From NCBI GenBank assembly GCA_964454455.1, contig CAYVVQ010000007.1, forward strand, positions 18,188 to 50,187: 32,000 nt of DNA, given 5' to 3'. Each line of letters opens with the position of its first letter. Positions within the stretch are counted from its first letter, which is position 1. Made by a program: the position numbers and the translations under genes. Below, one piece after another: positions 9,636 to 32,000 of the stretch. The DNA is from an uncultured Desulfobacterales bacterium. Its GTDB lineage: Bacteria; Desulfobacterota; DSM-4660; Desulfatiglandales; HGW-15. The notes beneath the pieces are model-generated. The model made no database searches. It had not been told where the DNA came from and saw only the letters and a list, made by a program, of their open reading frames with translations.

Positions 9636-9647
9636 GGCGGGACGAAT

Positions 9648-10388: not shown

Positions 10389-10391
10389 TAC

Positions 10392-12989: not shown

Positions 12990-13050
12990 TCCGATCGCTT
13001 TCGGGCGGTCTTCACGCAGTCACAGATCACGACCAAGGAGAAACCAACCC

Positions 13051-14196
13051 ATGACCTCCAACGAAATTCTCGACCTGCTCTTCAGTACCCTGCGAACCAC
13101 CGGCGTCTGGAACTTCCAGTTCAACATCATCGTGATGTGGGCCATCGGCTCCCTCTTCATCTGGCTCGCCATCGCCAAGAAGTACGAGCCCCTGCTGCTC
13201 CTCCCGATCGGGTTCGGCATCTTCATCGTCAACTTCCCGCTGGTGCCGATGATGGGGTACTCAGGGGACGGGCATCCTCACCTGCTCCAGTTCTTCTACC
13301 ACTACGGCCTCGAGTGGGAGATCATCCCCTGCGTGATCTTTCTCGGCCTGGGCGCCATGACCGACTTCGGACCGCTCATCGCGAACCCCAGGGTCCTGAT
13401 CATCGGCGCCGGCGCCCAGCTGGGCGTGTTCATCACCTTCACCGGGACCGTGCTCGCGGGCTTCACCCTCAAGGAGGCCGCCAGCGTCGGCATCATCGGA
13501 GGCGCGGACGGCCCCACCACGGTCTACCTCACCCAGCACCTGGCCCCCCATCTGCTGGGGGCGAACGCCCTGGCCGCCTACTCCTACATGGCCATGGTGC
13601 CCATCCTCCAGCCGCCCATTATGCGCCTGATGACCAACAGCAGGGAGCGGGTCATCAAGATGCGCCAGCTGCGGACCGTGTCCCGGCAGGAGAAGATCCT
13701 CTTCCCCCTGATCACCGCCGGCATCATCGCCCTGCTGGTCCCTTCGGTCATTCCGCTGATGGGCATGTTCATGCTCGGAAACCTCATGAAGGAGAGCGGC
13801 GTGGTGGCCCGGCTGACCGACACAGCCCAGGGCTCGCTCATGAACATCGTGACCATCTTCCTGGGTCTCTCGGTGGGCGCCACCATGCACGCGGACAAGT
13901 TCCTGAGCTGGAAGCCGCTGTTCATCTTCGGGCTGGGGCTGGTGGACTTCGGTGTCTGCACGATTGGAGGCATCCTCACCGTCAAGATCATGAACATGTT
14001 CCTCAAGGAGAAGATCAACCCGCTCATCGGGGCGGCCGGCGTCTCCGCCGTGCCCATGGCGTCCCGGGTCGTCCAGATGGAGGGCATCAAGTACGACAAG
14101 TCGAATCACATGCTCATGCACGCCGTGGGCCCCAACCTGGCGGGCGTGATCGGTTCGGCCGCGGCCGCGGGCATGTTCATCGCCATGTTCGACTGA
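13051..14196 (+). CDS. Sodium-ion-translocating decarboxylase beta subunit (OadB/GcdB/MmdB family)
   Basis: ORF 13051..14196, polytopic, with an AAGGAGAAA RBS. Family-typical stretches are IAKKYEPLLLLPIGFGIFIVNFP, GAMTDFGPLIANP, IGGADGPTTVY and AAGVSAVPMASRV. Confidence 0.9.
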   Translation: MTSNEILDLLFSTLRTTGVWNFQFNIIVMWAIGSLFIWLAIAKKYEPLLLLPIGFGIFIVNFPLVPMMGYSGDGHPHLLQFFYHYGLEWEIIPCVIFLGLGAMTDFGPLIANPRVLIIGAGAQLGVFITFTGTVLAGFTLKEAASVGIIGGADGPTTVYLTQHLAPHLLGANALAAYSYMAMVPILQPPIMRLMTNSRERVIKMRQLRTVSRQEKILFPLITAGIIALLVPSVIPLMGMFMLGNLMKESGVVARLTDTAQGSLMNIVTIFLGLSVGATMHADKFLSWKPLFIFGLGLVDFGVCTIGGILTVKIMNMFLKEKINPLIGAAGVSAVPMASRVVQMEGIKYDKSNHMLMHAVGPNLAGVIGSAAAAGMFIAMFD

Positions 14197-14269
14197 TTCG
14201 TGCTTCCCCGACTGTGGTGAGCGCTTGAATGCATTCGATTCCACTCCGACGCGTGCGAAAGGACGAGCC

Positions 14270-15743
<1,474 letters not shown>

Positions 15744-15811
15744 AACGCGCCGGGCACGGGCGGTGGGCCCCCGAGCCGGACGACCAGGCCGGCGAGCCCG
15801 CGGAGGTGCAG

Positions 15812-16462
15812 ATGAACTGGCTCGCGTCCACACTCCTCTCCTCCATCGGCAAGAAGCTGATGATGGCCTTCACCGGGGCCTGCTTCCTCCTGTTTCTCTG
15901 CGTGCACCTCGCCGGCAACCTCACCCTGTTCGAGGGCGGCGTCCTGTTCGAGGCCTACGCGGAGAGCCTTCACCGGCTGGGGCCGCTGGTGGTGGCGGCC
16001 GAGTGGGGACTCGTGGTGCTGGCCCTTGTACACGTCGTCACCGGTCTCTGGCTGTTCGCTTCGAACCTGCGGGCCCGCCCGCAGCGCTATCAGGTGAAAC
16101 GGCGGGCCGGCGGCCGCACCTGGGGATCGGCCACCATGCCCTACACCGGGATCCTGATCCTGGCCTTCGTGGTCCTGCACCTGTTCCACTTCCACTTCGC
16201 CGACCGGGTCGACACCGGCCTCTACCGCATTGTCTCGGACGTCTTCTCGAGCCCCTGGATCGTGGCCGTCTATGTGGTCGCCATGATCGTCCTGGCCTTT
16301 CACGTAAGCCACGGGCTCTGGAGCCTGTTTCAGAGCCTGGGAGCGAACCACCCCAAGTACATGCCCTTCCTCCAGAGGGTCGGCATCGCGGCCAGCCTGG
16401 CCTTCGGAATCGGGTTCGGGGCCATTCCGCTCTACATCGCGCTCTTCGGCCAAGGAGGATGA
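15812..16462 (+). CDS. sdhC: Succinate dehydrogenase/fumarate reductase cytochrome b subunit (single-subunit, b558/type B-like), 216 aa
   Basis: Frame of ORF 15179..16462 taken from [20 protein letters not shown] (ATG 15812, GGAGGTGCAG upstream). It has about 5 TM helices. Conserved-looking His residues are in [23 protein letters not shown] and [10 protein letters not shown]. It sits directly upstream of sdhA. Confidence 0.8.
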
Positions 16463-16463
16463 C

Positions 16464-18370
<1,907 letters not shown>

Positions 18371-18374
<4 letters not shown>

Positions 18375-19144
18375 CAGAGGAGACGAGCACCATCCGCATC
18401 CAGCTGCAGGTCTGGCGACAGAAGGGCCCGCGGGAGGGGGGACGGTTCGAGACCATCGACGTCCCCGACGTGGAGACCCACATGTCCTTCCTGGAGATGC
18501 TCGACGTGGTGAACGAGCGCCTGACCCTGGAGGGGAAGGAGCCCATCGAGTTCGACAGCGACTGCCGCGAGGGCATCTGCGGCATGTGCGGGGCCGTGGT
18601 GGACGGCATCGCCCACGGGCCGGAGCCCGCCGCAACCCTCTGCCAGCTCCACATGCGCAAGTTCGCGGACGGGGACGTGATCGTGGTGGAGCCCTGGCGG
18701 GCCAGGGCCTTTCCCCTGGTCAAGGACCTGGTGGTGGACCGATCCGCCCTGGACCGGCTGGTGGAGGCCGGGGGCTACGTCTCCGTGAACACCGGGGCGG
18801 CACCCGAGGCCAACACCCTTCCCGTGCCCCAGCCCAAGGCGGACGAGGCCATGGACGCGGCCGCCTGCATCGGCTGCGGCGCCTGCGTGGCCGCCTGCCC
18901 CAACGCGTCGGCCATGCTCTTCACGGGGGCCAAGGTCTCGCACCTGGCGCTCCTGCCCCAGGGGCGTCCCGAGGCGGCCCGCCGCGCCCTCGGCATGCAG
19001 CGGACCATGGACGGCCTGGGGTTCGGAAACTGCTCCAACGAGCGGGAGTGCGAGGCGGTCTGCCCCAAGGAGATCAAGATCACCCACATCGCGCGGCTCA
19101 ACCGGGAGTTCGTCAAGGCGAGCCTCGGGTCGAAGGAGCGGTAG
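18371..19144 (+). CDS. sdhB: Succinate dehydrogenase/fumarate reductase iron-sulfur subunit
   Basis: Frame of ORF 17990..19144 taken from GTG 18371, which forms a GTGA overlap with the sdhA stop. The 2Fe-2S cysteines are [10 protein letters not shown]. The ferredoxin cysteine clusters are [12 protein letters not shown] and [12 protein letters not shown]. Confidence 0.85.
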
Positions 19145-19156
19145 CCGGGAGTCCCC

Positions 19157-20773
19157 ATGCCCGAGTTCGTGTATCAGGAGCCCTTTCCCCTGGCCGAGGA
19201 CGCCGCCTCCTACCGGCTGCTGACCCCGGAGTTCGTCTCCGAGGGCCGGTTCGAGGATCACCGCATCCTGAAGGTCGATCCGGCCGGGCTCACCCTCCTG
19301 GCCGGGGAGGCGTTCCGGGACGTGGCCCACCTGTACCGGACCCGACACCTGGAGCAGCTGGCCGCCGTCCTGGAGGACCCCGAGGCCTCGGCCAACGACC
19401 GGTACGTGGCGCTGGAGATGCTCAAGAACGCCGTCATCTCGGCCGAGATGGTGTTCCCCATGTGCCAGGACACGGGAACGGCCATCGTTCTGGGAAAGAA
19501 GGGGCAGAGGGTCTGGACGAACGCTTGCGACGAGGAGCACCTCTCCCGGGGCGTGTTCGACGCCTATACCCGGAACAACCTGCGCTACTCCCAGAACGTG
19601 CCCCTCACCCTCTACGAGGAGAGGAACTCCGGCTCCAACCTGCCCGCCCAGATCGAGATCCAGGGCGTTACCGGAGACGCCTACTCGTTTCTGTTCATCG
19701 CCAAAGGCGGCGGCTCCTCGAACAAGACCTACCTGTTCCAGGAGACCAAGGCCGTTCTCCACCCCGACACCCTGGTGCCCTACCTGGTGGACCGGATGAA
19801 GGGGCTGGGCACCGCGGCCTGCCCGCCCTATCACCTGGCCTTCGTGATCGGCGGGACCTCGCCCGAGGCCAACCTGAAGACCGTCAAGCTGGCCACGGCC
19901 GGGTACCTCGACACCCTCCCCGTTACGGGAAACGAAGGGGGGCGGGCCTTTCGCGTGCCCGAGCTCGAGGCGGAGCTCCTGCAGCGATCCCGCGACCTCG
20001 GTATCGGGGCCCAGTTCGGGGGCAAGTACTTCTGTCACGACGTGCGCGTGATCCGGCTTCCCAGGCACGGCGCCTCCTGCCCCGTGGGCGTGGGGGTGAG
20101 CTGCTCCGCGGACCGGAACGCCCGTGCAAAGATCACCTTCGACGGGGTCTTCCTGGAGGCCCTGGACCGGGACCCGGCCCGGTTCCTCCCGAAGCCGGAG
20201 CCCGTGGACGAGGAGCCGGTCCGCATCGACCTGGACCGCCCCATGCACGAGATCCGGGCCGAGCTCTCCAGGCACCCCGTGGCCACCCGGCTGGCCCTGA
20301 GCGGCGACATCGTGGTGGCGCGGGACATCGCCCACGCCAGGCTCAAGGAGCGGCTGGACTGCGGAGAGGACCTCCCCGACTATGTCCGGGACCACATCAT
20401 CTACTATGCCGGTCCGGCCAAGCCCCCCGAGGGGCACCCCTCCGGGTCGTTCGGCCCCACCACGGCCGGCCGGATGGACCCCTACGTGCCGGTGTTCCAG
20501 GAGCGCGGCGCCTCCCTGGTGATGCTCGCCAAGGGCAACCGCTCCAGGCAGGTCACCGACTCCTGCAAGCGGTTCGGCGGCTTCTACCTGGGCTCCATCG
20601 GCGGCCCGGCCGCCCGCCTGGGTCGGGACTGCATCCGCGAGGTGGAGCTCCTGGAGTACCCGGAGCTCGGGATGGAGGCGATCTACCGGATTCGCGTGCA
20701 GGACTTTCCCGCCTTCATCATCGTCGACGACAAGGGGCATGATTTCTTCGAATCCGTCCTGCCTGAGGCCTGA
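19157..20773 (+). CDS. Class I (Fe-S dependent) fumarate hydratase, fused alpha/beta type, 538 aa
   Basis: ORF 19157..20773. Supporting stretches are [41 protein letters not shown] and [12 protein letters not shown]. Confidence 0.9.
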
Positions 20774-24010: not shown

Positions 24011-24126
24011 TTATAACCTATTGGTCAAGATAGGGATGAGCCACGACCTCGAGGGCGACCGGGAGGCCGCCCTCGACCTTTACGAGTGCGACCGTTCCAT
24101 GGAGAACGGCGCAGGAGGCCAGTTCC

Positions 24127-25035
24127 TTGCAGAAAAGCATCTCGAGCAGCCGATTCAACAGGACGATCCGTTTCTGGCCTATTGAGCTCCTCGCCTGCCT
24201 GCTGCTGTGCGGCGTCCTCGCGGGATGCGCCCAGGTGGCCGTACGGGGCTCGTCCTCGCTGGTCCCTCACTTCACCGGGGCCCTCTTCTCCGAGTGCGAC
24301 CCGGTGCTCGCCCGGAACTCCCTCCCCTCGAGCCTCAAGATGCTGGAGGGGCTCCTCCGGGCCGACCCGGGAAACCCGCGGCTCCTGGAGGCCCTCTCCA
24401 TGGGCTACACCGGGTATGCGGTGCTCTTTCTGGAGGACGAGGCCCCGGAAAGAGCCGAAAGACTCCTTCGACGGGCCCTGGGCTACGGCCTGGATGCGCT
24501 CGGCGATCGCGGTCGGGCCGTGGAGGCGGCCTCCATGGACCCGGACGCCCTTTCCCGGGCCCTCCAGGCCATGCGGGCCGAAGACGCCGAGCGTCTCTTC
24601 TGGGCCGGCCTCGCCTGGAGCGGCTGGGTCCGTCTCAACCTGGACGACCCCGAGGCCCTGGCCCAGCTCAATGCGGCCAAGGCCTGCCTTCGCCGCGTGA
24701 TCGAGCTGGACGGGACCACCTTCTACGGCATGCCCTACGCGGCCCTGGGAAGCGTCCTTTCCGCGGTCCCTCCCATGCTCGGCGGGGACCCGGAGGAGGC
24801 GCGGGCGCTCTTTGAAAAGGCAATCGCCGGAAATCACGGACGGTTTCTCCTGGCCAAGCTCTACTTTGCGCGGTACTATGCAGTCCGGGTCCAGGATCGC
24901 GCGCTGTTCGTGCGATTGCTGGACGAGATCGAGCAGACGGACCCCGACCTGCTCGGGGAGGTCTGCCTCCTCAACGCAGCGGCCCGGTTCCAGGCTCGGG
25001 GGCTGCGCGGGCAGCTGGATGACCTCTTTCTCTAG
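24127..25035 (+). CDS. TRAP-transporter-associated TPR lipoprotein (TatT-component family), 302 aa
   Basis: ORF 24127..25035, with a TTG start 8 nt after AGGAGG. The lipobox is LLCGVLAGC. Helical-repeat content includes LKMLEGLLRADPGNPRLL and LAKLYFARYYAV. It sits immediately upstream of dctP/Q/M homologues, as in TPAT systems. Confidence 0.65.
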   Translation: MQKSISSSRFNRTIRFWPIELLACLLLCGVLAGCAQVAVRGSSSLVPHFTGALFSECDPVLARNSLPSSLKMLEGLLRADPGNPRLLEALSMGYTGYAVLFLEDEAPERAERLLRRALGYGLDALGDRGRAVEAASMDPDALSRALQAMRAEDAERLFWAGLAWSGWVRLNLDDPEALAQLNAAKACLRRVIELDGTTFYGMPYAALGSVLSAVPPMLGGDPEEARALFEKAIAGNHGRFLLAKLYFARYYAVRVQDRALFVRLLDEIEQTDPDLLGEVCLLNAAARFQARGLRGQLDDLFL

Positions 25036-25044
25036 GAGCGCACA

Positions 25045-26067
25045 GTGAACCTTTCCCCTCGATTCCGCATCGCCCTCCTCTTCCCGGTCCTCTTTCTCCT
25101 GGTCGCGCCGGCCCCGGGCCCGGCGGCGGACCGGGCCGAGTTCGCCATCAAGTTCGCCGCCCTGGCGCCGGACGGCTCCACCTGGATGAAGGCCATGCGC
25201 GCCCTCGACCGGACCCTCCGGGAGAAGAGCGGAGGCCGACTCGGATTTCGCTTCTACCCGGGCGGCATCGCCGGCGACGAGCTGGACGTGCTTCGCAAGA
25301 TTCGCATCGGGCAGATCCACGCCACCGCATTCAGCGGGGTGGGCCTGACCCAGATCCTGCCCGAGGTGCGGGTGCTGGACCTGCCCTTCCTCTTTCGCGA
25401 CCTGGACGAGGTGGACCGGGTGCACGACACCCTCCGGGATCACTTCGCCCGGGGGTTCCGGGACAAGGGCTTCGAGCTCCTCGACTGGGCCGAGGTGGGC
25501 GATGTGCACCTCTACAGCAAGCAGTCCATCGACCGCCTCGCCGACCTGGCCCGGCGCAAGGTCTGGACCTGGTCCGGGGACCCCGTCTCCATGGAGACCT
25601 TCACGGCCATGGGCGCGAGCCCCATCCCGCTGGCCGCCACGGACGTGACCACCTCTCTCTCCACCGGAATGATCGACACGGTGTACGGTCCTCCCCTCGC
25701 GGCCCTGGCCCTCCAGTGGCACGCCTACACCAGCCACATGACCTCCTACCCCATCACCCACGCCACCGGGGCCATTCTCATCTCCCGGCGGTTCCACGGC
25801 CGCCTCCCGGAGGAGCTGGCCGGCCTCCTGAAGATCGAGCTCGAGGAGGCCACGGAGGAGCTCACCTATGCCCTGCGGGTGCAGAGCAACCAGGCCCTGG
25901 AGGTCCTCGAGAAGAAGAGCGGCCTCAGACCCACACCCGCGCCGACCGAAGAGGAGAAGCAGGCGTTCGATGCGGTGCACCGGGAGGTGGCCGACCGGCT
26001 GACCGGCCGGCTCTACCCGCAGGAGACACTGGATCGGGTCTATCGCATCCTCGGACGGACGCCCTGA
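25045..26067 (+). CDS. dctP: TRAP transporter substrate-binding protein (DctP family)
   Basis: ORF 25045..26067, with a GTG start 6 nt after AGGAG and a signal peptide. DctP-type motifs are GGIAGDELDVLRKIRIGQIHATAFSG and VLDLPFLF. Confidence 0.85.
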   Translation: MNLSPRFRIALLFPVLFLLVAPAPGPAADRAEFAIKFAALAPDGSTWMKAMRALDRTLREKSGGRLGFRFYPGGIAGDELDVLRKIRIGQIHATAFSGVGLTQILPEVRVLDLPFLFRDLDEVDRVHDTLRDHFARGFRDKGFELLDWAEVGDVHLYSKQSIDRLADLARRKVWTWSGDPVSMETFTAMGASPIPLAATDVTTSLSTGMIDTVYGPPLAALALQWHAYTSHMTSYPITHATGAILISRRFHGRLPEELAGLLKIELEEATEELTYALRVQSNQALEVLEKKSGLRPTPAPTEEEKQAFDAVHREVADRLTGRLYPQETLDRVYRILGRTP

Positions 26068-26077
26068 GTCGAACCGG

Positions 26078-26608
26078 ATGATCAAGACCTTGCATTTCAT
26101 GCGAGCCCTGGACCGGGGGCTGGCGCGCTGGGAAAAACGGGCGGTGGTGCTCTTCCTCTCGGCCATGGTCTTCTTCACCCTGGCCCAGGTCCTCCTCCGC
26201 GCCCTGGCCGCCTGCGCGGGCCTGGCCTGGGCCAATACGCTCCTCGCCCGCATCGCCTGGACCGATCCACTGGCCCGGGCGCTCATGCTCTGGCTCACCT
26301 TTCTGGGCGCCTCCCTCATCGCCCGCAAGAACCGGCACATCCGCATCGACGTCGTCTCGGCGGTGCTGCCGGAAAAATGGATGTCCCTGCGCGAGTCCGT
26401 GCTCGCATTCGCCACGGCGCTCATCTGCTGCATCATGTGTGCGGCCGCGGTTGCCATGGTGCGCATGGAACGGCAGTTCGGAGGCGCCCTCTTCCTCGGC
26501 GTGCCCACCTGGGCGGTGCAGGTCATCATCCCCCTGGGATTCCTCCTCCTGGCCTTCCGCTTCCTCCTGATCGCCCTGGAGCCTTTCCAGCCCGGGACCG
26601 GGGGGTGA
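26078..26608 (+). CDS. dctQ: TRAP transporter small permease (DctQ family)
   Basis: ORF 26078..26608. It has 4 predicted TM helices, including the typical RKNRHIRIDVV loop. It sits between the DctP and DctM homologues. Confidence 0.8.
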   Translation: MIKTLHFMRALDRGLARWEKRAVVLFLSAMVFFTLAQVLLRALAACAGLAWANTLLARIAWTDPLARALMLWLTFLGASLIARKNRHIRIDVVSAVLPEKWMSLRESVLAFATALICCIMCAAAVAMVRMERQFGGALFLGVPTWAVQVIIPLGFLLLAFRFLLIALEPFQPGTGG

Positions 26609-26612
26609 GCCC

Positions 26613-27890
26613 GTGATCGCCGCTCTGGCCGCCCTCATCATCCTCCTCATCCTGTTCGGCATGCCCGTGTTCGCCGGGATCACGGCCGCGGCCATGCTCG
26701 GCCTCTACTCGAGCGGGGTGGACCTCTCGGCCGTGGCCATCGAGATGTTCCGCCTGGCCAACGCCCCGGTGCTCCTGGCCATCCCCCTGTTCACCTTTGC
26801 GGGCTACCTCCTGAGCGAGGGCGGAACCTCCAGGCGGCTGGTCCGGTTCTCCCGATCGCTCCTCGGCTGGCTCCCCGGCGGCCTGGGCGTGGTGGCCCTG
26901 GTCTCCTGCGCCTTTTTCACGGCCATCACCGGCGCCACCGGGGTCACCATCATCGCACTGGGCGGGCTCCTCCTGCCCGCACTCATGTCCGAGCGTTACA
27001 CCGAGCGCTTCTCCCTGGGGCTCATGACCACCTCGGGGAGTCTGGGGCTTCACTTTCCCCCCAGCCTCCCCCTGATCCTCTTCGGCTTCGTCTCAGGCGC
27101 CTCCATCGAGACGCTGTTCGCGGCCGGCGTCATCCCTGGGGGGATCATGGTGGGCATCCTCTGCCTCTTCTCCGTTTTCATGGGCCGCAAGTGGAGACTG
27201 GAGAGCCCCGGGTTCTCCTTTTCCGAGTTCGCGGCCGCCATCCGCGAGGCCGCCTGGGAGCTCCCCATCCCGTTTCTGATCCTGGCAGCCATCTACACGG
27301 GATTCTCCACCGCCACCGAGACAGCCGCCCTCACCGTGGGCTACGTCCTCTTTATCAAGGTGATCGTCTACCGGGAGATCCGCCCCTTCTCCGATCTCCC
27401 CCGCATCATGGTGGAGAGCATGGAAATGGTGGGCGGCATCCTGATCATCCTGGGCGGCGCCCTGGGCTTCACCAACTACCTGGTGGATGCCTTCGTGCCC
27501 ATGAAGATTCTGGCCTACATGGAGGGCACCATCGAGACCCGCCTGGGCTTCCTCCTGGTCCTGAACGGCTTCTTGATCCTCGTGGGGTGCATGATGGACA
27601 TCTTCAGCGCCATCCTCATCGTGGTGCCCCTGGTCATGCCCCTGGCGCAGAAGTACGGCGTGGACCCGGTCCACCTGGGGGTGGTGTTCCTGGCCAACCT
27701 GGCCATCGGCTACAACACGCCGCCCGTGGGACTCAACCTCTTCATCGCGAGCTCCCGCTTCGACAGGCCCATCGTCACCCTGTACCGCGCCACCCTTCCC
27801 TTTCTGCTCCTCCTCCTGGCCTCCCTCCTCCTCATCACCTACTGGCCGGACCTGAGCCTCTTCCTCCCCCGGCAGCTGGGGCTGAGATAG
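26613..27890 (+). CDS. dctM: TRAP transporter large permease (DctM family)
   Basis: ORF 26613..27890 (GTG start), polytopic and 425 aa. Supporting stretches are PLFTFAGYLLSEGG, FTAITGATGVTIIALG and YNTPPVGLNLFIAS. Confidence 0.9.
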   Translation: MIAALAALIILLILFGMPVFAGITAAAMLGLYSSGVDLSAVAIEMFRLANAPVLLAIPLFTFAGYLLSEGGTSRRLVRFSRSLLGWLPGGLGVVALVSCAFFTAITGATGVTIIALGGLLLPALMSERYTERFSLGLMTTSGSLGLHFPPSLPLILFGFVSGASIETLFAAGVIPGGIMVGILCLFSVFMGRKWRLESPGFSFSEFAAAIREAAWELPIPFLILAAIYTGFSTATETAALTVGYVLFIKVIVYREIRPFSDLPRIMVESMEMVGGILIILGGALGFTNYLVDAFVPMKILAYMEGTIETRLGFLLVLNGFLILVGCMMDIFSAILIVVPLVMPLAQKYGVDPVHLGVVFLANLAIGYNTPPVGLNLFIASSRFDRPIVTLYRATLPFLLLLLASLLLITYWPDLSLFLPRQLGLR

Positions 27891-28031
27891 GCCCGGCTCC
27901 TGATTGGCGCGCCGGCCTGCGCGGCGGGCGCAAAACCCTTGCATTCCCCCGGGACAGTTGTTATGGAAATCATGCCGCGAGGCGATCGGTGATTCCGGAT
28001 TCATTCGGCAAAATTGAGGAGATACGTCACC

Positions 28032-29336
28032 ATGCCCACCATCGAGGATATCAAGCGGCGGCTGAGCGACGCGACCACCACCAAGGTGTTCTTCGTGGAC
28101 CTGAACGGCCGGGTGATGAGCCTGCCCATCAACCCGGAGAAGATCGAGCGGTTCCTGGAAACGGGCCTCGGGTTCGACGGCAGCTCCATCGCCGGGTACG
28201 CATCGGTGGAGAGCAGCGACAGGATCCTGATACCCGATCCGGAGAGCTTTCGGCTGGTGCCCTTCCAGGACGAACGGCTGGGGTTCTTCATCGGCCACAT
28301 CTTCAACGAGCAGGGCGAGCGCTCCAGAACCGACCCGCGAGCCGTCCTCGAGAAGGTGGTGGCCCAGGCCGAGTCCGAGTTCAACGCCCGGTTCACCGTG
28401 GGGCCGGAGCACGAGTTCTTTCTCCTGAACGGCGCCGACTGGTCGGACGGGATCCACACGGACAAGGCCGGCTACTTTCACCCCACGCCCCACGACCGGG
28501 GGGAGGCCGTCCGGAACGAGATCATCGCCATCCTCGCCGCGTGCGGCATCCGCTTCGAGAAGGCCCATCACGAGGTGACCCCGTCCCAGCACGAGATCAA
28601 CCTGGAGGCCACGGATCCCCTCCAGGCTGCGGACCGAACGGTCCTGTTCAACCACGTGACCCAGCAGACCGCCGCGGCCCACGGGTTTCACGCCACCTTC
28701 ATGCCCAAGCCCTTCGACGGGCAGAACAGGAGCGCCTTTCACATCCACCTCTCCATGCAGGACGCCCGGGGGAACAACCTGTTCTTCGACGAATCGGCCG
28801 AAGGCGGCCTGAGCCGAACCGCACGGAGCTTCATCGGCGGCATCCTCCAGCACGCCCGGGGCACCTCCCTCGTCATGGCCTCCACCCTCAACTCCTACAA
28901 GGCCTACGTGCTCGAGCGGGAGGCCCCGATCGTACGCACCTGGGGGTTCAGGAACCGGAGCTCCATGGTGCGCGTCCCCTACAGCCCGGACGCCCGGGGC
29001 GTCCGCCTCGAGCTCCGGAGCCCCGACCCCGCGGGGAACGTCTACCTCCAGCTGGCCACCTTCATCGCCATGGGGCTCGACGGCTTGAGAAACCGGACCG
29101 ACCCCGGCAAGCCGGATTCCGGAAGCACTTACAACAAGAGGTTCCGTCCCAAGGTGTGGGACCGCCGCTTCCTGCCCAAGAGCCTCTACGAGGCCCTGGT
29201 GGAGGCGGAGCGAAGCCGCTTCCTCCCGGAGCTGCTGGGCGATCACGCATACCGGAGCTACATGACCCTCAAGACCAGGGACTGGGAGGAGCACCGCACC
29301 CACGTGACGCCGAGGGAGCACGCGAAGTACCTCTAG
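28032..29336 (+). CDS. Glutamine synthetase family (type I-like) ATP-dependent amide ligase, 434 aa; physiological substrate unclear
   Basis: ORF 28014..29336 taken from ATG 28032 (GAGGAG upstream). GS motifs present are VGPEHEFFLL, AHHEVTPSQHEINL, TFMPKPF, NRSSMVRVPYS and RLELRSPDPAGNVYL. The usual G-S-G-x-H loop reads NRSAFH. Confidence 0.8.
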   Translation: MPTIEDIKRRLSDATTTKVFFVDLNGRVMSLPINPEKIERFLETGLGFDGSSIAGYASVESSDRILIPDPESFRLVPFQDERLGFFIGHIFNEQGERSRTDPRAVLEKVVAQAESEFNARFTVGPEHEFFLLNGADWSDGIHTDKAGYFHPTPHDRGEAVRNEIIAILAACGIRFEKAHHEVTPSQHEINLEATDPLQAADRTVLFNHVTQQTAAAHGFHATFMPKPFDGQNRSAFHIHLSMQDARGNNLFFDESAEGGLSRTARSFIGGILQHARGTSLVMASTLNSYKAYVLEREAPIVRTWGFRNRSSMVRVPYSPDARGVRLELRSPDPAGNVYLQLATFIAMGLDGLRNRTDPGKPDSGSTYNKRFRPKVWDRRFLPKSLYEALVEAERSRFLPELLGDHAYRSYMTLKTRDWEEHRTHVTPREHAKYL

Positions 29337-29393
29337 CAGAAAACGGACCCATCCTCCCGGGACCTGCCCCGGGCGGGAAAGGAGAGCACCCCC

Positions 29394-30467
29394 ATGGAAG
29401 CATGGACGGAACAGGTCCAGAACGCGGTCAACACCCTGGACAAGCTCAAGGAGTACATCAACGTCTCCCCGGATGAGGAGAGGGCGATCACCACCCTTCA
29501 CACCAAGTGGGGGACCACGCCCTACTTCGCCTCCCTCATGGATCCGGACGATCCCGACTGCCCCATCCGCAAGCAGGTCATCCCCTCCATGAGGGAGACC
29601 GAGAACCGCTACGGCATCCCCGACTACCTCATCTGGAAGGAAAACCGCGCGGGCGACGAGAGGCGGCCCGACGCCATCGCCCGACAGTACCACGACCGGA
29701 TCGCCTTCACCGTCACGGACGTCTGCGCCAACTACTGCCGCCACTGCTTCCGCAAGGAGCTCGTGGTGGACCGCGACCTGAAGCTTCGCATGGACGTGGA
29801 CGAGGGCCTCCAGTGGATCGCCGAGCACGAGGAGATCCGGGACGTGCTGGTCACCGGCGGGGACCCGTTCATCCTGTCGGACGACAAGATCGAGTACGTG
29901 ATCCGAAAGCTCCGGGAGATCCCGCACCTGGAGATGATCCGTTTCGGCACCCGCACGCCCATCGTGCTGCCCCATCGAATCACGGAAGGCCTCAAGGAGA
30001 TCCTGAGCCCCTTCCATCGAGTTCCCATCTGGGTGAACACCCAGTGCAACCACCCCAAGGAGATCACCGACCTCACCGCGAAGGCGGTCTACGACCTTCT
30101 CACCTGCGGGGTGAATGTGGGCAATCAGGCCGTGCTCCTCAAGGGCATCAACGACGACGTGGAGACCTTCCGCGAGCTCCATCAGAAGCTCCTCCGGGTG
30201 CGTATCCGCCCCTACTACGTCTTCTACTGCGAGCCCGCGCCCGGCATCGACCACTTCCGCACGCCCGTGGAAAAGGGCGCGGAGCTGATCCGGGACGCCA
30301 TCCGCGGCCACACCACGGGCCTGGCCCAGCCCATGTACGTGATCGCCACGAACATCGGCAAGGTCCCGCTCATGCCGGACTACTACATCGAAGGGGTAAC
30401 GGAGAAAGAGTACCTGCTGGTGAACTACAAGGGCGAGAAGACCTCCATCCCGAACATCCCGGAGTAG
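29394..30467 (+). CDS. KamA-family radical SAM / PLP aminomutase (lysine-2,3-aminomutase-like), short 357-aa form
   Basis: ORF 29394..30467 with a GAAAGGAGAG RBS. The radical-SAM triad is CANYCRHC. Family-typical stretches are TPYFASLM, PIRKQVIP, VLVTGGDPF, RFGTRTP, GNQAVLLKGIND, RPYYVFYC and HFRTPV. NIGK is the candidate PLP lysine. Confidence 0.9.
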   Translation: MEAWTEQVQNAVNTLDKLKEYINVSPDEERAITTLHTKWGTTPYFASLMDPDDPDCPIRKQVIPSMRETENRYGIPDYLIWKENRAGDERRPDAIARQYHDRIAFTVTDVCANYCRHCFRKELVVDRDLKLRMDVDEGLQWIAEHEEIRDVLVTGGDPFILSDDKIEYVIRKLREIPHLEMIRFGTRTPIVLPHRITEGLKEILSPFHRVPIWVNTQCNHPKEITDLTAKAVYDLLTCGVNVGNQAVLLKGINDDVETFRELHQKLLRVRIRPYYVFYCEPAPGIDHFRTPVEKGAELIRDAIRGHTTGLAQPMYVIATNIGKVPLMPDYYIEGVTEKEYLLVNYKGEKTSIPNIPE

Positions 30468-30468
30468 G

Positions 30469-30897
30469 CTACCGGACCCGCTCCAGGCGCTCCAGGCACT
30501 GGCGGAGGATCTCCACGTTCTGCCGGAGCGCATCCCGGGAGACCCGGGCGGCCTCGTCCTCGATGATCCGCGTGAGCAGGGCCACGCTCCGCTGCAGGGG
30601 GGCCTTGATCTCGTCGATGCGCGGGTCGCGCTCCGGTTTTTCCTGGGGCATCGACTCGGCGGCCGCCAAAATGGACGATGCGAAGACGGCCGTGTCGTTG
30701 GTGTCGTCGTCCTCCTCGGCAGGGGCCGTATCCCCGGTCAGCTTCCGGATGAGGGCGGCCATGTCGCTGCTGACCATGCGGATGGGGTCGATGTGGTAGA
30801 GCTCCATGTCCTCCAGGACGCCCTCGGAGATGAGATCCTGGTAGAGCTCCTGAAGCTCCTGGATCAGATCGTTCTGCCGGGTGTCCTGCTCGGCCAT
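30469..30897 (-). CDS. Hypothetical acidic, helical protein, 142 aa
   Basis: ORF 30469..31041(-) taken from MAEQDTRQ ('cat' at 30895-97). The composition is coding-like and rich in Glu/Asp/Leu. I recognise no family. It is convergent with the aminomutase gene, with 1 nt between the stop codons. Confidence 0.45.
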   Translation of the reverse strand: MAEQDTRQNDLIQELQELYQDLISEGVLEDMELYHIDPIRMVSSDMAALIRKLTGDTAPAEEDDDTNDTAVFASSILAAAESMPQEKPERDPRIDEIKAPLQRSVALLTRIIEDEAARVSRDALRQNVEILRQCLERLERVR

Positions 30898-31136
30898 GGG
30901 CCGCTCCCGCAACGGTTGGTGTGATCCACCATTCAAAGCCCCAGCCGAACCCCGAGCCGAGCCTTTGACGCCTTCATGGCGGGATGGTATCCTCGTCGCA
31001 TGGGATTCACAACCAAATTCTGCACCGCCCAAGGATCCCAAAGATCGGAACCCCTCGAAGATGTTGAAACGTTTTTCGCCGAAGATGCTCTATACCCCAA
31101 CGGCGAGAGAGTCGAAAGAACATGGAGGAGGACAAC

Positions 31137-31346
31137 ATGCCCATCTATGAGTACAAATGCGATGCATGTGGAGAAATGTTCGAGCAACTGGTCTTCGCGT
31201 CCGACAAGGATGAACCCGTCCCCTGCCCGTCCTGCGGCCGTCACAGGACGAAAAGGCAGCTGTCGTCCTTTTCCTGCGGATCCAGCTCCGAGGGCCTGGG
31301 AGCGGCCCTCTCCTCAGGATGCGGGTCTTCGGGCGGTTTCTCTTGA
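31137..31346 (+). CDS. FmdB-family zinc-ribbon protein, 69 aa
   Basis: ORF 31122..31346 taken from MPIYEYKCDACGEMFE, the hallmark N-terminus. The second CxxC is CPSCG. GGAGGAGG lies 5 nt upstream. The tail is Gly/Ser/Cys-rich. Confidence 0.8.
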   Translation: MPIYEYKCDACGEMFEQLVFASDKDEPVPCPSCGRHRTKRQLSSFSCGSSSEGLGAALSSGCGSSGGFS

Positions 31347-31480
31347 GCGGGTTGAGACCGCGGCCGTGCGCCGCCGAGGATAAATCAAAAATCATAACGC
31401 TCTCAGTTATTTGAGATAGATTTCTCAAGCGATGGATCACAACACCAGCGATGGCATCGAAGCAGGAAAAGGAGAAAGAC

Positions 31481-31567
31481 ATGGGTATCGGGTGGTTCCT
31501 GATCATCATTGCCGCCTGGGTTCTTCTGCAGGCGGTGATTCTGCCGAAGATGGGCATCTCCACTTGA
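31481..31567 (+). CDS. Small hydrophobic membrane ORF, 28 codons to UGA (63 codons, to 31672, if the UGA is decoded as selenocysteine)
   Basis: Below the ORF-track size cut-off. ATG 31481 lies 7 nt after AAGGAG. The product is MGIGWFLIIIAAWVLLQAVILPKMGIST, then TGA at 31565-67. The same frame stays open: MRPGCQVDNRAGTQQVSSPGDSERIERTEDAETN, then TGA at 31670-72. Confidence 0.45.
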   Translation: MGIGWFLIIIAAWVLLQAVILPKMGIST

Positions 31568-31573
31568 ATGCGA

Positions 31574-31598
31574 CCAGGTTGTCAGGTGGACAACCGGG
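31574..31598 (+). other. Stem-loop 9 nt downstream of the UGA (bacterial SECIS-like geometry)
   Basis: GGTTGTC (31577-83) pairs perfectly with GACAACC (31589-95). The loop is AGGTG (31584-88). Two further C-G pairs lie beyond an A/G mismatch. There are 16 nt between the UGA and the loop, and G is the second loop base. No U-tract follows, so it is not an intrinsic terminator. Confidence 0.35.
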
Positions 31599-31775
31599 CC
31601 GGCACCCAACAGGTCAGTTCTCCGGGCGATTCAGAGAGGATCGAGCGCACGGAGGATGCAGAAACGAACTGAGCGGAAGGTCCATCACGATGGGATCTTG
31701 TACGCGCGGGAGGATCTCCGAACGACAACATCGAATGTCCTTGTGTACGATGCCGGGTCACGCTGGAGCATTGAG

Positions 31776-32000
31776 ATGGTACGTTCGAATCGTATCGGGT
31801 CTGGGAAGGCCGTGAGGAACGGATTCCTCGGGTTTCTGATCGTCCTCCCTCTTTTCTGCTTGCAGTGCACGGCCACGCTCCCCAGGGAAGGCCCGCCCGG
31901 GACGGGCACCTACAGGATCAATCTGGATACCGCGGTGATGGGCGCGAAGCGCTACTACCTCCTGCACATACCCAGTCGCTCTGATCCGGGAAACAAGGCG
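31776..32000 (+). CDS. Secreted esterase, PHB-depolymerase/LpqC-like family, N-terminal fragment (runs off the window end)
   Basis: Not in the ORF track because it is truncated. ATG 31776 lies 7 nt after GGAG. The product is MVRSNRIGSGKAVRNGFLGFLIVLPLFCLQCTATLPREGPPGTGTYRINLDTAVMGAKRYYLLHIPSRSDPGNKA. A signal peptide followed by an R-Y-Y-L-L-H-I-P type motif is common in that esterase family. Confidence 0.45.
   Translation, partial: MVRSNRIGSGKAVRNGFLGFLIVLPLFCLQCTATLPREGPPGTGTYRINLDTAVMGAKRYYLLHIPSRSDPGNKA

What the first reader, a model, noticed from the sequence alone, without database searches (positions are those of the whole stretch)
31481..31672. Small membrane ORF whose UGA is followed by a SECIS-like hairpin and 34 more open codons: candidate selenoprotein with a U-x4-C motif
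Seen in sequence:
- A strong RBS (AAGGAG, 7-nt spacer) precedes the ORF.
- The ORF encodes one TM helix (MGIGWFLIIIAAWVLLQAVILPKMGIST) and then TGA at 31565-67.
- The same frame continues MRPGCQVDNRAGTQQVSSPGDSERIERTEDAETN to a second TGA at 31670-72.
- Nine nt after the first TGA there is a perfect 7-bp stem (GGTTGTC/GACAACC) with loop AGGTG. That places 16 nt between the UGA and the loop, with G as the second loop base.
- No U-tract follows the hairpin.

Established knowledge: bacterial Sec insertion needs a hairpin immediately 3' of the UGA with a G-containing apical loop at about this spacing. Sec is common in anaerobic deltaproteobacteria. Sec often pairs with a nearby Cys in redox motifs, and here the motif would be T-U-M-R-P-G-C.

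Inference: this is a 63-aa membrane-anchored selenoprotein that a standard gene caller would miss or truncate. The FmdB zinc-ribbon gene lies 134 nt upstream.
Basis: partly seen in the sequence, partly recalled or inferred. Interest (0 to 1): 0.7.

Follow-up and report, generated by a model that had tools for sequence, protein, structure and literature searches.

The report
Tiny membrane selenoprotein gene, with partner
The small ORF very probably encodes a 63-residue membrane-anchored selenoprotein of a widespread family I found in no catalogue, and the zinc-ribbon gene just upstream also appears to end in a selenocysteine, so public annotation cuts both genes short.

Summary
In this 66% GC window the single sequence is not beyond chance. 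Comparison with relatives decides the matter.

- **UGA codon.** In 92 distinct homologous loci from Desulfobacterota metagenomes and MAGs, the codon after ...LPKxGxxT is TGA in 92 of 92. The true terminal stop of the same gene is TGA 31, TAA 31, TAG 29.
- **Reading frame.** The frame stays open for 15-42 more codons in every locus. A Cys is invariant five residues after the UGA (seven in an insertion variant).
- **Hairpin.** It meets the published bacterial SECIS consensus in the window and is kept by compensatory changes. The synonymous third base of the Cys codon pairs T-A 50, C-G 41, T-G 1, with no mismatch.
- **No Cys homologue.** None was found. "Full-length" database entries carry W there, apparently from UGA-as-Trp gene calling.
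- **No catalogued family.** Pfam, NCBIfam (June 2026) and a 2026 inventory of 119 prokaryotic selenoprotein families contain no match.
- **Upstream gene.** The FmdB zinc-ribbon gene shows the same signature: TGA in 61 of 61 loci, then 1-3 codons, then a mixed stop, then a strongly covarying 3'-UTR hairpin.

Not shown here: Sec-decoding genes in this genome, selenium incorporation, and function. A membrane-face selenol/thiol relay is inference only.

The parts
31137..31355 (+). FmdB-family zinc-ribbon gene (MPIYEYKCDAC...SSGGFS), read through its TGA to a two-codon tail (U-A-G) and a second stop, TGA 31353-55
   Evidence: TIGR02605 scores 63 bits (cut-off 31.3) and PF09723 58.9 bits. The family consensus start is MPIYEY. 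The tail pattern is conserved in 61 of 61 loci.
31344..31346 (+). In-frame TGA of the FmdB gene, predicted selenocysteine codon (...GGFS-U-A-G-stop)
   Evidence: The first stop is TGA in 61 of 61 distinct loci. It is followed by 1-3 codons (AG 20, A 18, G 10, AS 8). The second stop is TGA 33, TAA 17, TAG 11. One homologue has Cys there: P0290 ...PGGFSCGSGG.
31360..31374 (+). 3'-UTR hairpin GCGGC / CGUGC / GCCGC, 18 nt after the FmdB UGA; candidate SECIS
   Evidence: It folds at -9.0 kcal/mol. The family alignment A9 has 8 pairs, 79.8% of cells paired against 22-58% when slid. All 8 pairs carry double-sided changes, and 0 of 500 shuffles reach the observed value on any of the five measures. There are 41 distinct 5' arms, and the loop is CGUGY.
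31469..31474 (+). Shine-Dalgarno AAGGAG, 6 nt before ATG 31481
   Evidence: Read directly. The apparent 'KEK' conservation upstream of the Met in homologues coincides with AAGGAGAAA. Other clades start directly at the TM helix.
31481..31672 (+). Complete small gene: 63 codons including the UGA, then the true stop TGA 31670-72
31487..31546 (+). Single transmembrane helix (GIGWFLIIIAAWVLLQAVILP)
   Evidence: KD(19) is 2.56. W13, L16, Q17, A18, L21 and P22 are invariant across 15 diverse members. K+R average 0.19 before the helix and 1.89 in the 12 residues after it.
31565..31567 (+). In-frame TGA, predicted selenocysteine codon (residue 29)
   Evidence: TGA in 92 of 92 distinct loci. Never TAA, TAG, TGC or TGT. 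Read as W in entries that extend past it, apparently from UGA-as-Trp gene calling.
31580..31582 (+). Cys codon TGT (residue 34), the C of U-x4-C; lies inside the 5' arm of the hairpin
   Evidence: Invariant Cys. Its third base always pairs with its partner: T-A 50, C-G 41, T-G 1. Column pair 24-32 reads CG 26, UA 18.
31577..31595 (+). SECIS-like hairpin GGUUGUC / AGGUG / GACAACC, with a weaker lower stem reaching about 31569-31604
   Evidence: It folds at -8.8 kcal/mol. CM R1 scores 48.1 bits here and at most 9.7 bits elsewhere in the window. There is one hit per locus, at the UGA, in 92 of 92 loci.

Best explanation
**What it is.** The ORF 31481-31672 is a genuine selenoprotein gene.

**How it is decoded (inferred from anatomy).** UGA 31565-67 is read as selenocysteine by the canonical bacterial route, SelB with Sec-tRNA(Sec). 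The hairpin directing this starts 9 nt downstream and lies inside the coding sequence.

**The product.** It is a 63-residue single-pass membrane protein. The N-terminus is almost absent. A 21-residue helix with a conserved LLQA...LP motif comes first, then -K-M-G-I-S-T-U-M-R-P-G-C-, then a hydrophilic, poorly conserved tail. By the positive-inside rule, the Sec-x4-Cys pair and the tail face the cytoplasm at the membrane surface (inferred).

**The partner gene.** The gene forms a conserved two-gene unit with the FmdB-family zinc-ribbon gene upstream. That gene also appears to be a selenoprotein gene, ending ...C-x7-GGFS-U-A-G, with its SECIS-like hairpin in the 3' UTR.

**Proposed function (speculative).** The membrane-anchored U-x4-C forms a reversible selenenylsulfide, or binds a soft metal. 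It exchanges with the flexible Cys...Sec tail of the soluble zinc-ribbon partner. This would be a selenol/thiol relay at the inner face of the membrane.

**Status of each step.**
- Shown: conservation of the UGA, the reading frame, the Cys and the hairpin, and the gene pairing.
- Inferred: Sec insertion itself, topology and function.
For: **1. UGA invariance.** The codon is TGA in 92 of 92 distinct loci. The terminal stop of the same genes is TGA 31, TAA 31, TAG 29.

**2. Coding continuity.**
- Frame 0 stays open at least 15 codons after the UGA in 100% of loci, against 22% and 47% in the other frames.
- A 2-codon in-frame insertion (MRPNASC / MRPGASC) occurs between the UGA and the Cys.
- The residue after U is M, L, V or I. 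It is encoded partly by non-start codons: CTT 6, CTC 4, ATA 2, ATC 1, GTC 1.

**3. Invariant Cys** five residues after the UGA.

**4. Hairpin and the published bSECIS consensus** (PMC13188914, Fig. 2 legend). The consensus asks for a 3-9 nt loop, a 4-16 bp stem, G in the first two loop positions, 16-37 nt spacing, and MFE of -7.5 kcal/mol or lower.
- The window has loop AGGUG, a 7-bp stem, 16 nt spacing and -8.8 kcal/mol.
- Across the family, loops are AGGU(N), GGU or AGUUG. The first loop base lies at +19 or +20 in 82 of 92 loci.

**5. Covariation.**
- On the gapless codon-anchored alignment, 74.5% of cells are paired, against 25-51% when slid. The covariation score is 0.310, against 0.203 or less, and 0 of 500 shuffles reach it.
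- TGT pairs with ACA and TGC with GCA/GGC, so the amino acid three positions on switches (D/G, T/A) with a synonymous Cys codon.
- L024 carries a different stem, CCGAAU/AUUCGG, shifted 3'.

**6. Specificity.** The CM finds exactly one hit per locus in 422 kb. It is unique in the window.

**7. Database behaviour.** The proteins that extend past the site have W there.

**8. An independent second UGA plus hairpin 220 nt upstream,** in non-coding sequence and with strong covariation. It supports Sec decoding in these genomes, if it too is a Sec site.

**9. Taxon.** Relatives are Desulfobacterales, Desulfobacteraceae and Thermodesulfobacteriota MAGs. Desulfobacterota hold several of the largest known bacterial selenoproteomes (PMC13326102).

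**10. Gene pairing.**
- FmdB lies directly upstream in 61 of 71 loci of the window's clade.
- The order is reversed in a Desulfovibrio MAG, where both genes again carry UGA plus hairpin.

**11. Redox hints.**
- A DsbD_TM/CcdA gene lies 27 nt downstream in L024.
- A thioredoxin gene sits next to FmdB-U in Acidobacteria.
Against: - **No Sec machinery seen.** The window holds no tRNA gene and no Rfam match. No tRNA-Sec was found in the flanks of 91 loci. The rest of the genome could not be examined.
- **No Cys-containing homologue was found.** This fails the usual Sec/Cys criterion. Reviews say nearly all selenoproteins have Cys homologues (PMC13188914; PMC12013277).
- **The stem overlaps conserved codons.** Part of its conservation is therefore protein-driven. 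Holding the peptide fixed, synonymous recoding gives only mean z = -1.6 across the family. The window alone is not significant, since 12.8% of recodings fold as well.
- **Two robust covariation measures** (pairs with double-sided change, further pair types) do not exceed shuffles for this hairpin.
- **Composition.** GC3 of the tail is about 0.65 by my own count from the sequence, against 0.83-0.96 in the window's confident genes.
- **The tail is poorly conserved.**
- **There is no experimental evidence.** Function is inferred from motif and neighbours only, and neighbours vary in the FmdB-less clade.
Confidence: 0.85

Rival explanations
1. The UGA is a true stop. The product is a 28-residue micro-membrane protein. 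The hairpin is a regulatory or mRNA-stabilising element, or the region after it is a separate tiny ORF translated by termination-reinitiation at the UGA-AUG junction.
For: Public gene calls end there. In the window and in 54 of 92 loci the codon after TGA is ATG. The tail is poorly conserved and has lower GC3. No Cys homologue exists.
Against: A true stop should drift among TGA, TAA and TAG, as the real stop of this same gene does (31/31/29). Here it is TGA in 92 of 92. In 38 of 92 loci the next codon is not ATG, and 14 are non-start codons: CTT, CTC, ATA, ATC, GTC. The frame stays open in 100% of loci and indels are in-frame. The Cys codon stays TGY while its third base covaries. There is no U-tract.
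Confidence: 0.07
2. The UGA is read through, but not as selenocysteine. The hairpin stimulates near-cognate decoding, for example as Trp or Cys. This gives a mixture of a 28-residue and a 63-residue protein.
For: The sequence data alone cannot tell which amino acid is inserted. The Sec machinery was not observed.
Against: If Trp or Cys were acceptable, TGG or TGY should have replaced TGA somewhere among 92 divergent loci, and none has. The hairpin geometry and G-containing loop match the SelB-type consensus. The carriers belong to Sec-rich lineages. A neighbouring gene shows a C-terminal UGA plus hairpin, as published for SaoC.
Confidence: 0.04
3. This is a chance ORF-plus-hairpin coincidence in a GC-rich genome, and no gene is present.
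For: In this window alone the fold statistics are weak. TGA codons with open frames on both sides are frequent.
Against: There are 209 representative clusters at 50% identity and 448 metagenome relatives. Synteny is conserved. Residues in the helix are invariant.
Confidence: 0.01

Closest known systems
Canonical bacterial selenoprotein genes with an in-ORF SECIS (fdhF paradigm; bSECIS consensus of Zhang & Gladyshev as summarised in PMC13188914)
   Same: There is an in-frame UGA. A hairpin lies immediately 3' within the ORF. The apical loop is small, with G then G/U. Spacing is 16 nt. A redox-type Sec...Cys pair is present.
   Different: The protein is only 63 residues and membrane-anchored. 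It has no recognisable fold or domain, and no Cys-containing homologue was found. The E. coli-type bulged U is absent (that feature is from my own knowledge).
C-terminal-Sec proteins whose SECIS lies after the stop: SaoC (UGA-UAG double stop, 7-bp stem, GGU loop; bioRxiv 10.1101/2022.07.06.499078) and the 'UXX-star' / 'KCU-star' families listed in PMC13188914
   Same: The upstream FmdB gene has the same layout. A UGA is followed by 1-3 codons and a real stop. A short perfect stem with a G-containing loop then sits 14-24 nt downstream in the UTR.
   Different: The protein family differs (zinc ribbon, TIGR02605). In one search the listed matches for the FmdB product included none of those families. 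The only FmdB-family selenoprotein form in the 2026 inventory has Sec in the zinc-ribbon motif (UxxU), not at the C-terminus.
LULAxC-motif selenoprotein TsoA (NF045695) and other short-motif families of Haft & Tolstoy 2025, as listed in PMC13188914
   Same: They are small uncharacterised selenoproteins defined by a short Sec...Cys motif, and were found by neighbourhood analysis.
   Different: The motif is U-x3-C, not U-x4-C. No NCBIfam model of release 20 matches any of 15 family members at E of 10 or below. I could not read that paper, as it is not held.
Eukaryotic SELENOK / SELENOS (from my own knowledge, not tested)
   Same: They are single-pass membrane proteins with a short disordered cytosolic tail carrying Sec. 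They work with soluble partners.
   Different: There is no sequence relationship. Sec sits near the C-terminus rather than next to the membrane. The SECIS type is eukaryotic and lies in the 3' UTR. This is analogy only.

Membership tests
Bacterial selenoprotein gene (SelB / bSECIS-dependent UGA recoding) | In-frame UGA conserved among homologues, with the reading frame continuing beyond it | tested here: met
   TGA in 92 of 92 loci. Frame open at least 15 codons in 100% of loci. Real stop usage is mixed.
Bacterial selenoprotein gene (SelB / bSECIS-dependent UGA recoding) | Hairpin meeting the bSECIS consensus: 3-9 nt loop, 4-16 bp stem, G in the first two loop positions, 16-37 nt from the UGA, MFE of -7.5 kcal/mol or lower (PMC13188914) | tested here: met
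   The window has loop AGGUG, 7 bp, 16 nt and -8.8 kcal/mol. A few members fold more weakly, for example L063 at -5.0 kcal/mol for the 48-nt segment.
Bacterial selenoprotein gene (SelB / bSECIS-dependent UGA recoding) | Hairpin maintained by compensatory substitutions | tested here: met
   Cys third base against partner: T-A 50, C-G 41, T-G 1. 74.5% paired against 25-51% when slid, and 0 of 500 shuffles reach the covariation score. Caveat: the two pair-count measures do not exceed shuffles, and the stem overlaps coding constraints.
Bacterial selenoprotein gene (SelB / bSECIS-dependent UGA recoding) | Homologues with Cys aligned to the UGA (the Sec/Cys pair criterion used by SECIS-independent methods) | tested here: not met
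   No Cys form appears among 183 hits, 209 representatives, 8 genomes or the 80 best of 448 metagenome loci. Every extended protein has W. This is a discovery heuristic, not a mechanistic requirement.
Bacterial selenoprotein gene (SelB / bSECIS-dependent UGA recoding) | selA, selB, selC (tRNA-Sec) and selD present in the same genome | not testable with these tools
   Only 32 kb is available, with no tRNA gene in it. The flanks of other loci hold no tRNA-Sec. Indirect support: a second UGA plus hairpin in the same locus and a Sec-rich taxon.
Bacterial selenoprotein gene (SelB / bSECIS-dependent UGA recoding) | Selenium demonstrably incorporated at the UGA position | not testable with these tools
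   Needs 75Se labelling or mass spectrometry.
Any catalogued selenoprotein or protein family (Pfam-A 2025, NCBIfam r20, Table 1 of PMC13188914) | Significant match to a curated family model | tested here: not met
   No family at E of 10 or below for the window protein. For 15 diverse members only 5 chance-level matches appear, the best at E = 0.084. None of the 119 listed families has a U-x4-C motif or a small TM architecture.
FmdB-family zinc ribbon (TIGR02605 / PF09723), for the upstream gene | N-terminal M-P-x-Y-E-Y-x-C-x2-C ... C-x2-C zinc ribbon scoring above the curated cut-off | tested here: met
   TIGR02605 scores 63 bits against 31.3. PF09723 scores 58.9 bits against 34.4.
C-terminal-Sec ('U-x-x-stop') selenoprotein layout, for the upstream gene | Conserved UGA a few codons before a variable true stop, plus a SECIS-like hairpin in the 3' UTR | tested here: met
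   TGA in 61 of 61 loci, a tail of 1-3 codons, and a second stop of TGA 33, TAA 17, TAG 11. Hairpin covariation gives 0 of 500 shuffles on all five measures. One Cys homologue, P0290. The same layout occurs in Acidobacteria and Desulfovibrio MAGs.

The most novel reading that the evidence does not exclude
The two adjacent genes encode an obligately selenium-dependent two-component module. One part is a soluble zinc-ribbon protein with a flexible Cys...Sec C-terminal arm. The other is a membrane-anchored peptide with Sec-x4-Cys next to the membrane. Together they would form a selenol relay at the cytoplasmic face of the membrane in sulfate reducers and relatives. The relay might feed CcdA/DsbD-type transmembrane thiol transfer, or handle soft metals. 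No Cys-only version exists, so this would be a selenium-requiring membrane process invisible to current selenoprotein-finding methods.
Probability: 0.35. Interest if true: 0.8.

Novelty: new member of a known kind. Interest (0 to 1): 0.64.

Why it matters
**1. Annotation.** Hundreds of sequence clusters in public databases list this gene as a 28-40 residue hypothetical protein. Some list it with a spurious Trp, and others probably omit it. The FmdB partner is cut one to three residues, plus its Sec, short.

**2. Method blind spot.** Current selenoprotein discovery leans on Cys-containing homologues and on minimum ORF length (PMC12013277; PMC13188914). A widespread family with no Cys form shows what those filters miss. 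It suggests prokaryotic selenoproteomes are under-counted for small proteins.

**3. Biology.** This would be a bacterial membrane-anchored selenoprotein with no fold beyond a helix and a Sec-x4-Cys motif. It is paired with a second selenoprotein. That points to an uncharacterised selenium-dependent process at the membrane of sulfate-reducing bacteria.

**4. Codon-structure coupling.** An RNA hairpin dictates amino-acid choice (D/G, T/A) through pairing with a synonymous Cys codon.

Tried and rejected
- **Rfam scan of the window:** nothing at gathering thresholds.
- **Pfam and NCBIfam on the read-through product and on 15 family members:** nothing.
- **tRNA-Sec search** in the window and in 91 loci: none. 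These are short flanks, so the result is uninformative.
- **Exhaustive protein search with the read-through product.** I used the truncated homologue profile instead.
- **Crude scan for other UGA-interrupted genes** in the window and in L013. It gave only off-frame noise typical of 66% GC DNA. The two unannotated gaps turned out to be the Sdh/Frd cytochrome b and Fe-S subunits.
- **Covariance model R1.** It did not realign the 4-nt-loop subclade, so A8 adds little beyond A7. I relied on the gapless codon-anchored alignment and on register-specific counts instead.
- **Termination-reinitiation at UGA-AUG:** rejected because of non-start codons in 14 loci.
- **Rho-independent terminator:** rejected, as there is no U-tract. 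The only terminator-like site is at 31813-31830.
- **The upstream ATG 31451 start used by gene callers:** rejected in favour of ATG 31481. That start has an RBS, and other clades lack the extension.
- **Haft & Tolstoy 2025** could not be read. I relied on its family list in PMC13188914 and on the NCBIfam models.
- **Function from neighbours in the FmdB-less clade.** The neighbours are heterogeneous: MobB, HD, 3D, a sigma-54 activator, CopA, Hcp. No single pathway emerges.
Full report
**1. The observation**

The sequence is as described.
- AAGGAG lies at 31469-31474 and ATG at 31481. The spacer is 6 nt, not 7.
- The ORF encodes MGIGWFLIIIAAWVLLQAVILPKMGIST, followed by TGA at 31565-67.
- The same frame continues for 34 codons to TGA at 31670-72.
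- Nine nt after the first TGA lies GGTTGTC-AGGTG-GACAACC (31577-31595). No U-tract follows it.
- The FmdB-type ORF, as normally called, ends 134 nt upstream.

Taken alone, this is not clearly beyond chance.
- The 19-nt hairpin folds at -8.8 kcal/mol, z = -2.77.
- The 40-nt and 66-nt contexts give z = -1.39 and -0.31.
- The window is 66% GC, with long spurious ORFs in every frame.
- A crude scan of the window and a second strain's locus finds dozens of TGA codons with open frames on both sides.
- Rfam, Pfam and NCBIfam recognise nothing in the small product.

**2. Relatives**

A word-indexed protein search with the read-through product returned eight proteins of 38-53 residues. All end exactly at ...GIST.
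- Their contigs show conserved synteny: DctM, GlnA, a KamA-like radical-SAM gene, a minus-strand gene of about 140 aa, FmdB, then the small ORF.
- In every one, the stop is TGA. The frame continues as (M/I)R(P/Q)(G/S)C(Q/P)VDN... to a second stop 34-37 codons later where the contig reaches that far.
- One lineage has a two-codon in-frame insertion between the TGA and the Cys.

Wider searches extended the family.
- A scan of one genome per species found eight MAGs: Desulfobacterales, Desulfobacteraceae, "Deltaproteobacteria" and Thermodesulfobacteriota. All show the same arrangement, at identities down to 38%.
- A profile search found 183 proteins. An exhaustive HMMER search of 1.84 billion representatives found 209 clusters.
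- Almost all of these end exactly at the ...LP(K/R)xGxxT motif. The few that extend carry W at that position followed by x4-C, for example ...GISTWMRNSCQVGD. I read that W as UGA translated as Trp by the gene caller.
- No homologue with Cys at that position was found.
- A metagenome scan found 448 relatives, of which the best 80 were fetched.

**3. Tests on 92 distinct family sequences**

- **The UGA.** The codon after the motif is TGA in 92 of 92. The retrieval patterns did not include that codon. A Cys form would have scored better, so the sample is not biased toward TGA.
- **The real stop.** The stop that ends the extended frame is TGA 31, TAA 31, TAG 29. Stop codons in these genomes therefore drift freely, except at this one position.
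- **The frame.** The frame after the UGA stays open at least 15 codons in 100% of loci, against 22% and 47% for the other frames.
- **The next residue.** It is M, L, V or I. In 14 loci it is encoded by CTT, CTC, ATA, ATC or GTC. This rules out a restart codon.
- **The Cys.** It is invariant five residues after the UGA, or seven in the insertion lineage.
- **The tail.** It is hydrophilic (K 15%, E 11%, D 10%), 15-42 residues long, and poorly conserved.

**4. The hairpin**

Nearly every member has a 4-9 bp stem whose 5' arm contains the Cys codon.
- Loops are AGGU(N), GGU or AGUUG. The first loop base lies at +19 or +20 from the U of UGA in 82 of 92 loci.
- The published bacterial SECIS consensus asks for a 3-9 nt loop, a 4-16 bp stem, G in the first two loop positions (usually followed by G or U), 16-37 nt spacing, and MFE of -7.5 kcal/mol or lower (PMC13188914).
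- The window element meets all four criteria: AGGUG, 7 bp, 16 nt, -8.8 kcal/mol.

The stem covaries.
- GUUGUC/GACAAC alternates with GUUGCC/GGCGAC, GCUGCC/GGCAGC, CUUGUC/GACAAG, CUGCC/GGCAG and GCGUGUC/GACACGC.
- L024 has a shifted stem of different sequence, CCGAAU/AUUCGG.
- The synonymous third base of the Cys codon always pairs with its partner: T-A 50, C-G 41, T-G 1, and no mismatch. As a result, the amino acid encoded by the partner codon switches (D with TGT, G with TGC; T with TGT, A with TGC).
- On a gapless codon-anchored alignment of 56 sequences, not fitted to the structure, 74.5% of cells are paired against 25-51% for slid partners. The covariation score is 0.310 against 0.203 or less, and 0 of 500 shuffles reach it.

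Caveats on the hairpin.
- The two pair-count measures do not exceed shuffles.
- With the peptide held fixed, synonymous recoding gives a family mean z of only -1.6. The window alone is not significant.
- The peptide here is itself shaped by the stem, so that control is conservative.

A covariance model built from the alignment scores 48.1 bits at the site and at most 9.7 bits elsewhere in the window. It hits exactly once per locus, always at the UGA, in 422 kb.

**5. The neighbour**

The FmdB-family zinc-ribbon gene scores 63 bits on TIGR02605. It lies directly upstream in 62 of 86 loci with enough sequence.
- The family splits by hairpin register. FmdB is upstream in 61 of 71 loci of the window's clade. 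It is absent from all 21 loci of the other clade (4-nt loop...ACQVT...).

This gene has the same signature as the small ORF.
- Its first stop is TGA in 61 of 61 distinct loci. One to three codons follow (AG, A, G, AS). The second stop is TGA 33, TAA 17, TAG 11.
- Between 14 and 24 nt after the UGA, in untranslated sequence, lies a hairpin with 41 distinct 5' arms and a conserved CGUGY loop.
- On an alignment anchored only on the loop motif, 79.8% of cells are paired against 22-58% when slid. All 8 pairs show double-sided changes, and 0 of 500 shuffles reach the observed value on any of the five measures.
- In the window, the UGA is at 31344-46, the tail is GCG GGT, the stop is at 31353-55, and the hairpin GCGGC/CGUGC/GCCGC is at 31360-74 at -9.0 kcal/mol.

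Further support for the FmdB reading.
- One homologue has Cys in place of the UGA (...PGGFSCGSGG, P0290).
- A Cys lies 6-7 residues before the UGA in the sequences I inspected.
- The same ...SGFS-UGA-x-stop plus hairpin occurs in Acidobacteria MAGs, next to a thioredoxin gene.
- It also occurs in a Desulfovibrio MAG where the gene order is reversed. There a distant small-TM relative...IPKMGISP-UGA-...GGGCGGN with its own CGUGC-loop hairpin, sits immediately before FmdB.
- The layout (UGA, very short tail, SECIS after the stop) has a published precedent in SaoC (bioRxiv 10.1101/2022.07.06.499078).

The locus therefore holds two independent candidate Sec codons. This partly compensates for my inability to inspect the genome for selABCD.

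**6. Mechanism**

*Decoding (well supported, not proven).* SelB with Sec-tRNA(Sec), recruited by each hairpin, inserts Sec at 31565-67 and at 31344-46. Termination at these codons presumably competes with insertion, as I understand it does at other Sec codons.

*Product (read from sequence).* One TM helix, KD(19) = 2.56, with invariant W13, L16, Q17, A18, L21 and P22.

*Topology (inferred).* K+R average 0.19 before the helix and 1.89 in the 12 residues after it. This predicts N-out, C-in. The Sec-x4-Cys pair would then sit at the cytoplasmic membrane surface, where the signal-less FmdB protein could reach it.

*Function (speculative).* A selenenylsulfide or soft-metal site that exchanges with the Cys...Sec arm of FmdB.
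- Supporting hints: a CcdA/DsbD_TM gene lies 27 nt downstream in L024. A thioredoxin gene is adjacent to FmdB-U in Acidobacteria. In the FmdB-less clade, neighbours include a CopA/HMA metal cluster, Hcp/YgbA_NO, and MobB.
- These contexts are heterogeneous and do not define a pathway.

**7. Comparison with what is known**

The decoding mechanism is the canonical bacterial one. The protein matches nothing curated.
- No Pfam or NCBIfam (release 20, June 2026) model matches.
- None of the 119 families or subfamilies in the 2026 inventory matches (PMC13188914).
- The nearest motif, LULAxC (TsoA, NF045695), is U-x3-C, and its model does not hit.
- The only FmdB-family selenoprotein form in that inventory has UxxU in the zinc ribbon, not a C-terminal Sec.

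Existing discovery pipelines require Cys-containing homologues (PMC12013277; PMC13188914). That requirement, with the product's small size, plausibly explains why the family is missing.

Residual uncertainty remains.
- I could not read Haft & Tolstoy 2025.
- An earlier unnamed listing therefore cannot be excluded.

**8. Verdict**

- I put the probability that this is a true selenoprotein gene at about 0.85.
- It is a new family within a known kind of system. Its unusual features are its tiny size, its membrane anchoring, the absence of a Cys form, and its pairing with a second, C-terminal-Sec selenoprotein.
- Function remains unknown beyond a motif-based redox or metal hypothesis.

**9. Surroundings of the window**

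- Oxaloacetate decarboxylase alpha and beta: 11493-14193.
- Malate dehydrogenase: 14802-15740.
- Succinate dehydrogenase / fumarate reductase subunits C, A and B: 15812-19138.
- Fumarase: 19157-20770.
- An OYE-type flavoenzyme, an epimerase, a TRAP transporter, GlnA and a KamA-like radical-SAM enzyme follow.
- A branched-chain amino-acid ABC transporter and a two-component system lie upstream.

None of these is a recognisable selenoprotein or Sec-machinery gene.

Noticed in passing
window 31137-31374: The FmdB-family zinc-ribbon gene upstream appears to be a selenoprotein gene itself. Its 'stop' is TGA in 61 of 61 loci. One to three codons follow, then a variable true stop, then a strongly covarying 3'-UTR hairpin with loop CGUGY. 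The predicted C-terminus in the window is ...C-x7-GGFS-U-A-G.
   Followed up: yes
L114:2339-2710 and L115 (Desulfovibrio sp. MAG): The gene order is reversed. A distant small-TM relative (MSDLLGLVAVFAVVFLIVKVVIPKMGISP-UGA-QIAKQRKSRADSEKNGGGCGGN) has its own CGUGC-loop hairpin. It lies 4 nt before an FmdB gene ending SGFS-UGA-GGC-TAA plus hairpin. The Cys sits far from the UGA here, not at x4.
   Followed up: partly
L112/L113:2139-2760 (Acidobacteria MAG): An FmdB gene ending ...CGSSGFS-TGA-GCG-TAA is followed by the hairpin GCAGGC/GGU/GCCUGC. It sits 30 nt after a thioredoxin gene. No small TM gene was seen there.
   Followed up: partly
L024:3196-3672: A CcdA/DsbD-type transmembrane thiol-disulfide transfer gene (PF02683, E = 1.1e-8) starts 27 nt after the small selenoprotein gene in a Thermodesulfobacteriota MAG.
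   Followed up: partly
Proteins P0009-P0012, P0014, P0130, P0151, P0153, P0219: Public protein collections hold 'full-length' versions of the family with Trp at the UGA position. This is apparently because gene callers read UGA as Trp on short contigs. The artefact could be mined to find other missed selenoproteins.
   Followed up: partly
L027, L028, L049, L061, L067, L073, L102, L104 and similar loci: A second clade of the small protein (4-nt loop AGGU, ...(A/S)CQV(T/A)...) never has FmdB within 3 kb. Its neighbours include MobB (sometimes overlapping by 7 nt), a CopA-type P-type ATPase with HMA and metal-resistance genes, Hcp plus ferredoxin before YgbA_NO, HD-domain proteins, and a sigma-54 activator.
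   Followed up: partly
L027:2022-3278: A YHS-domain gene and a short gene with a weak GRDB hit lie near the small gene in L027. Both Pfam families have catalogued selenoprotein forms. I did not check whether these copies carry in-frame UGAs.
   Followed up: no
window 11493-20770: A C4-dicarboxylate / TCA-branch cluster: oxaloacetate decarboxylase alpha and beta, malate dehydrogenase, Sdh/Frd cytochrome b, flavoprotein and Fe-S subunits, and class I fumarase. An unassigned 170-aa ORF lies at 14225-14734.
   Followed up: partly
window, for example 27093-30533 (-), 8517-11018 (-), 24025-26529 (-): Very long ORFs (up to 1146 aa) lie antisense or off-frame to real genes. They are artefacts of 66% GC. 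Their codon-position GC lacks the very high GC3 (0.83-0.96) of the confident genes.
   Followed up: yes
window 30472-31041 (-) and 1812-2852 (-): Two ORFs with coding-like GC3 have no Pfam match. The first (190 aa as listed, called at about 142 aa in other strains' contigs) is conserved in synteny between the radical-SAM gene and FmdB.
   Followed up: no
window 31356-31380 versus L013: The window is not identical to the closest metagenome contigs in the FmdB 3' hairpin region (GACCGCGGCCGTGCGCCGCCGAGG against GATCGCGGCCGTGCGCCGCGGCGG). The outer stem pairs differ between strains, while the 5-bp core and the loop are kept.
   Followed up: partly
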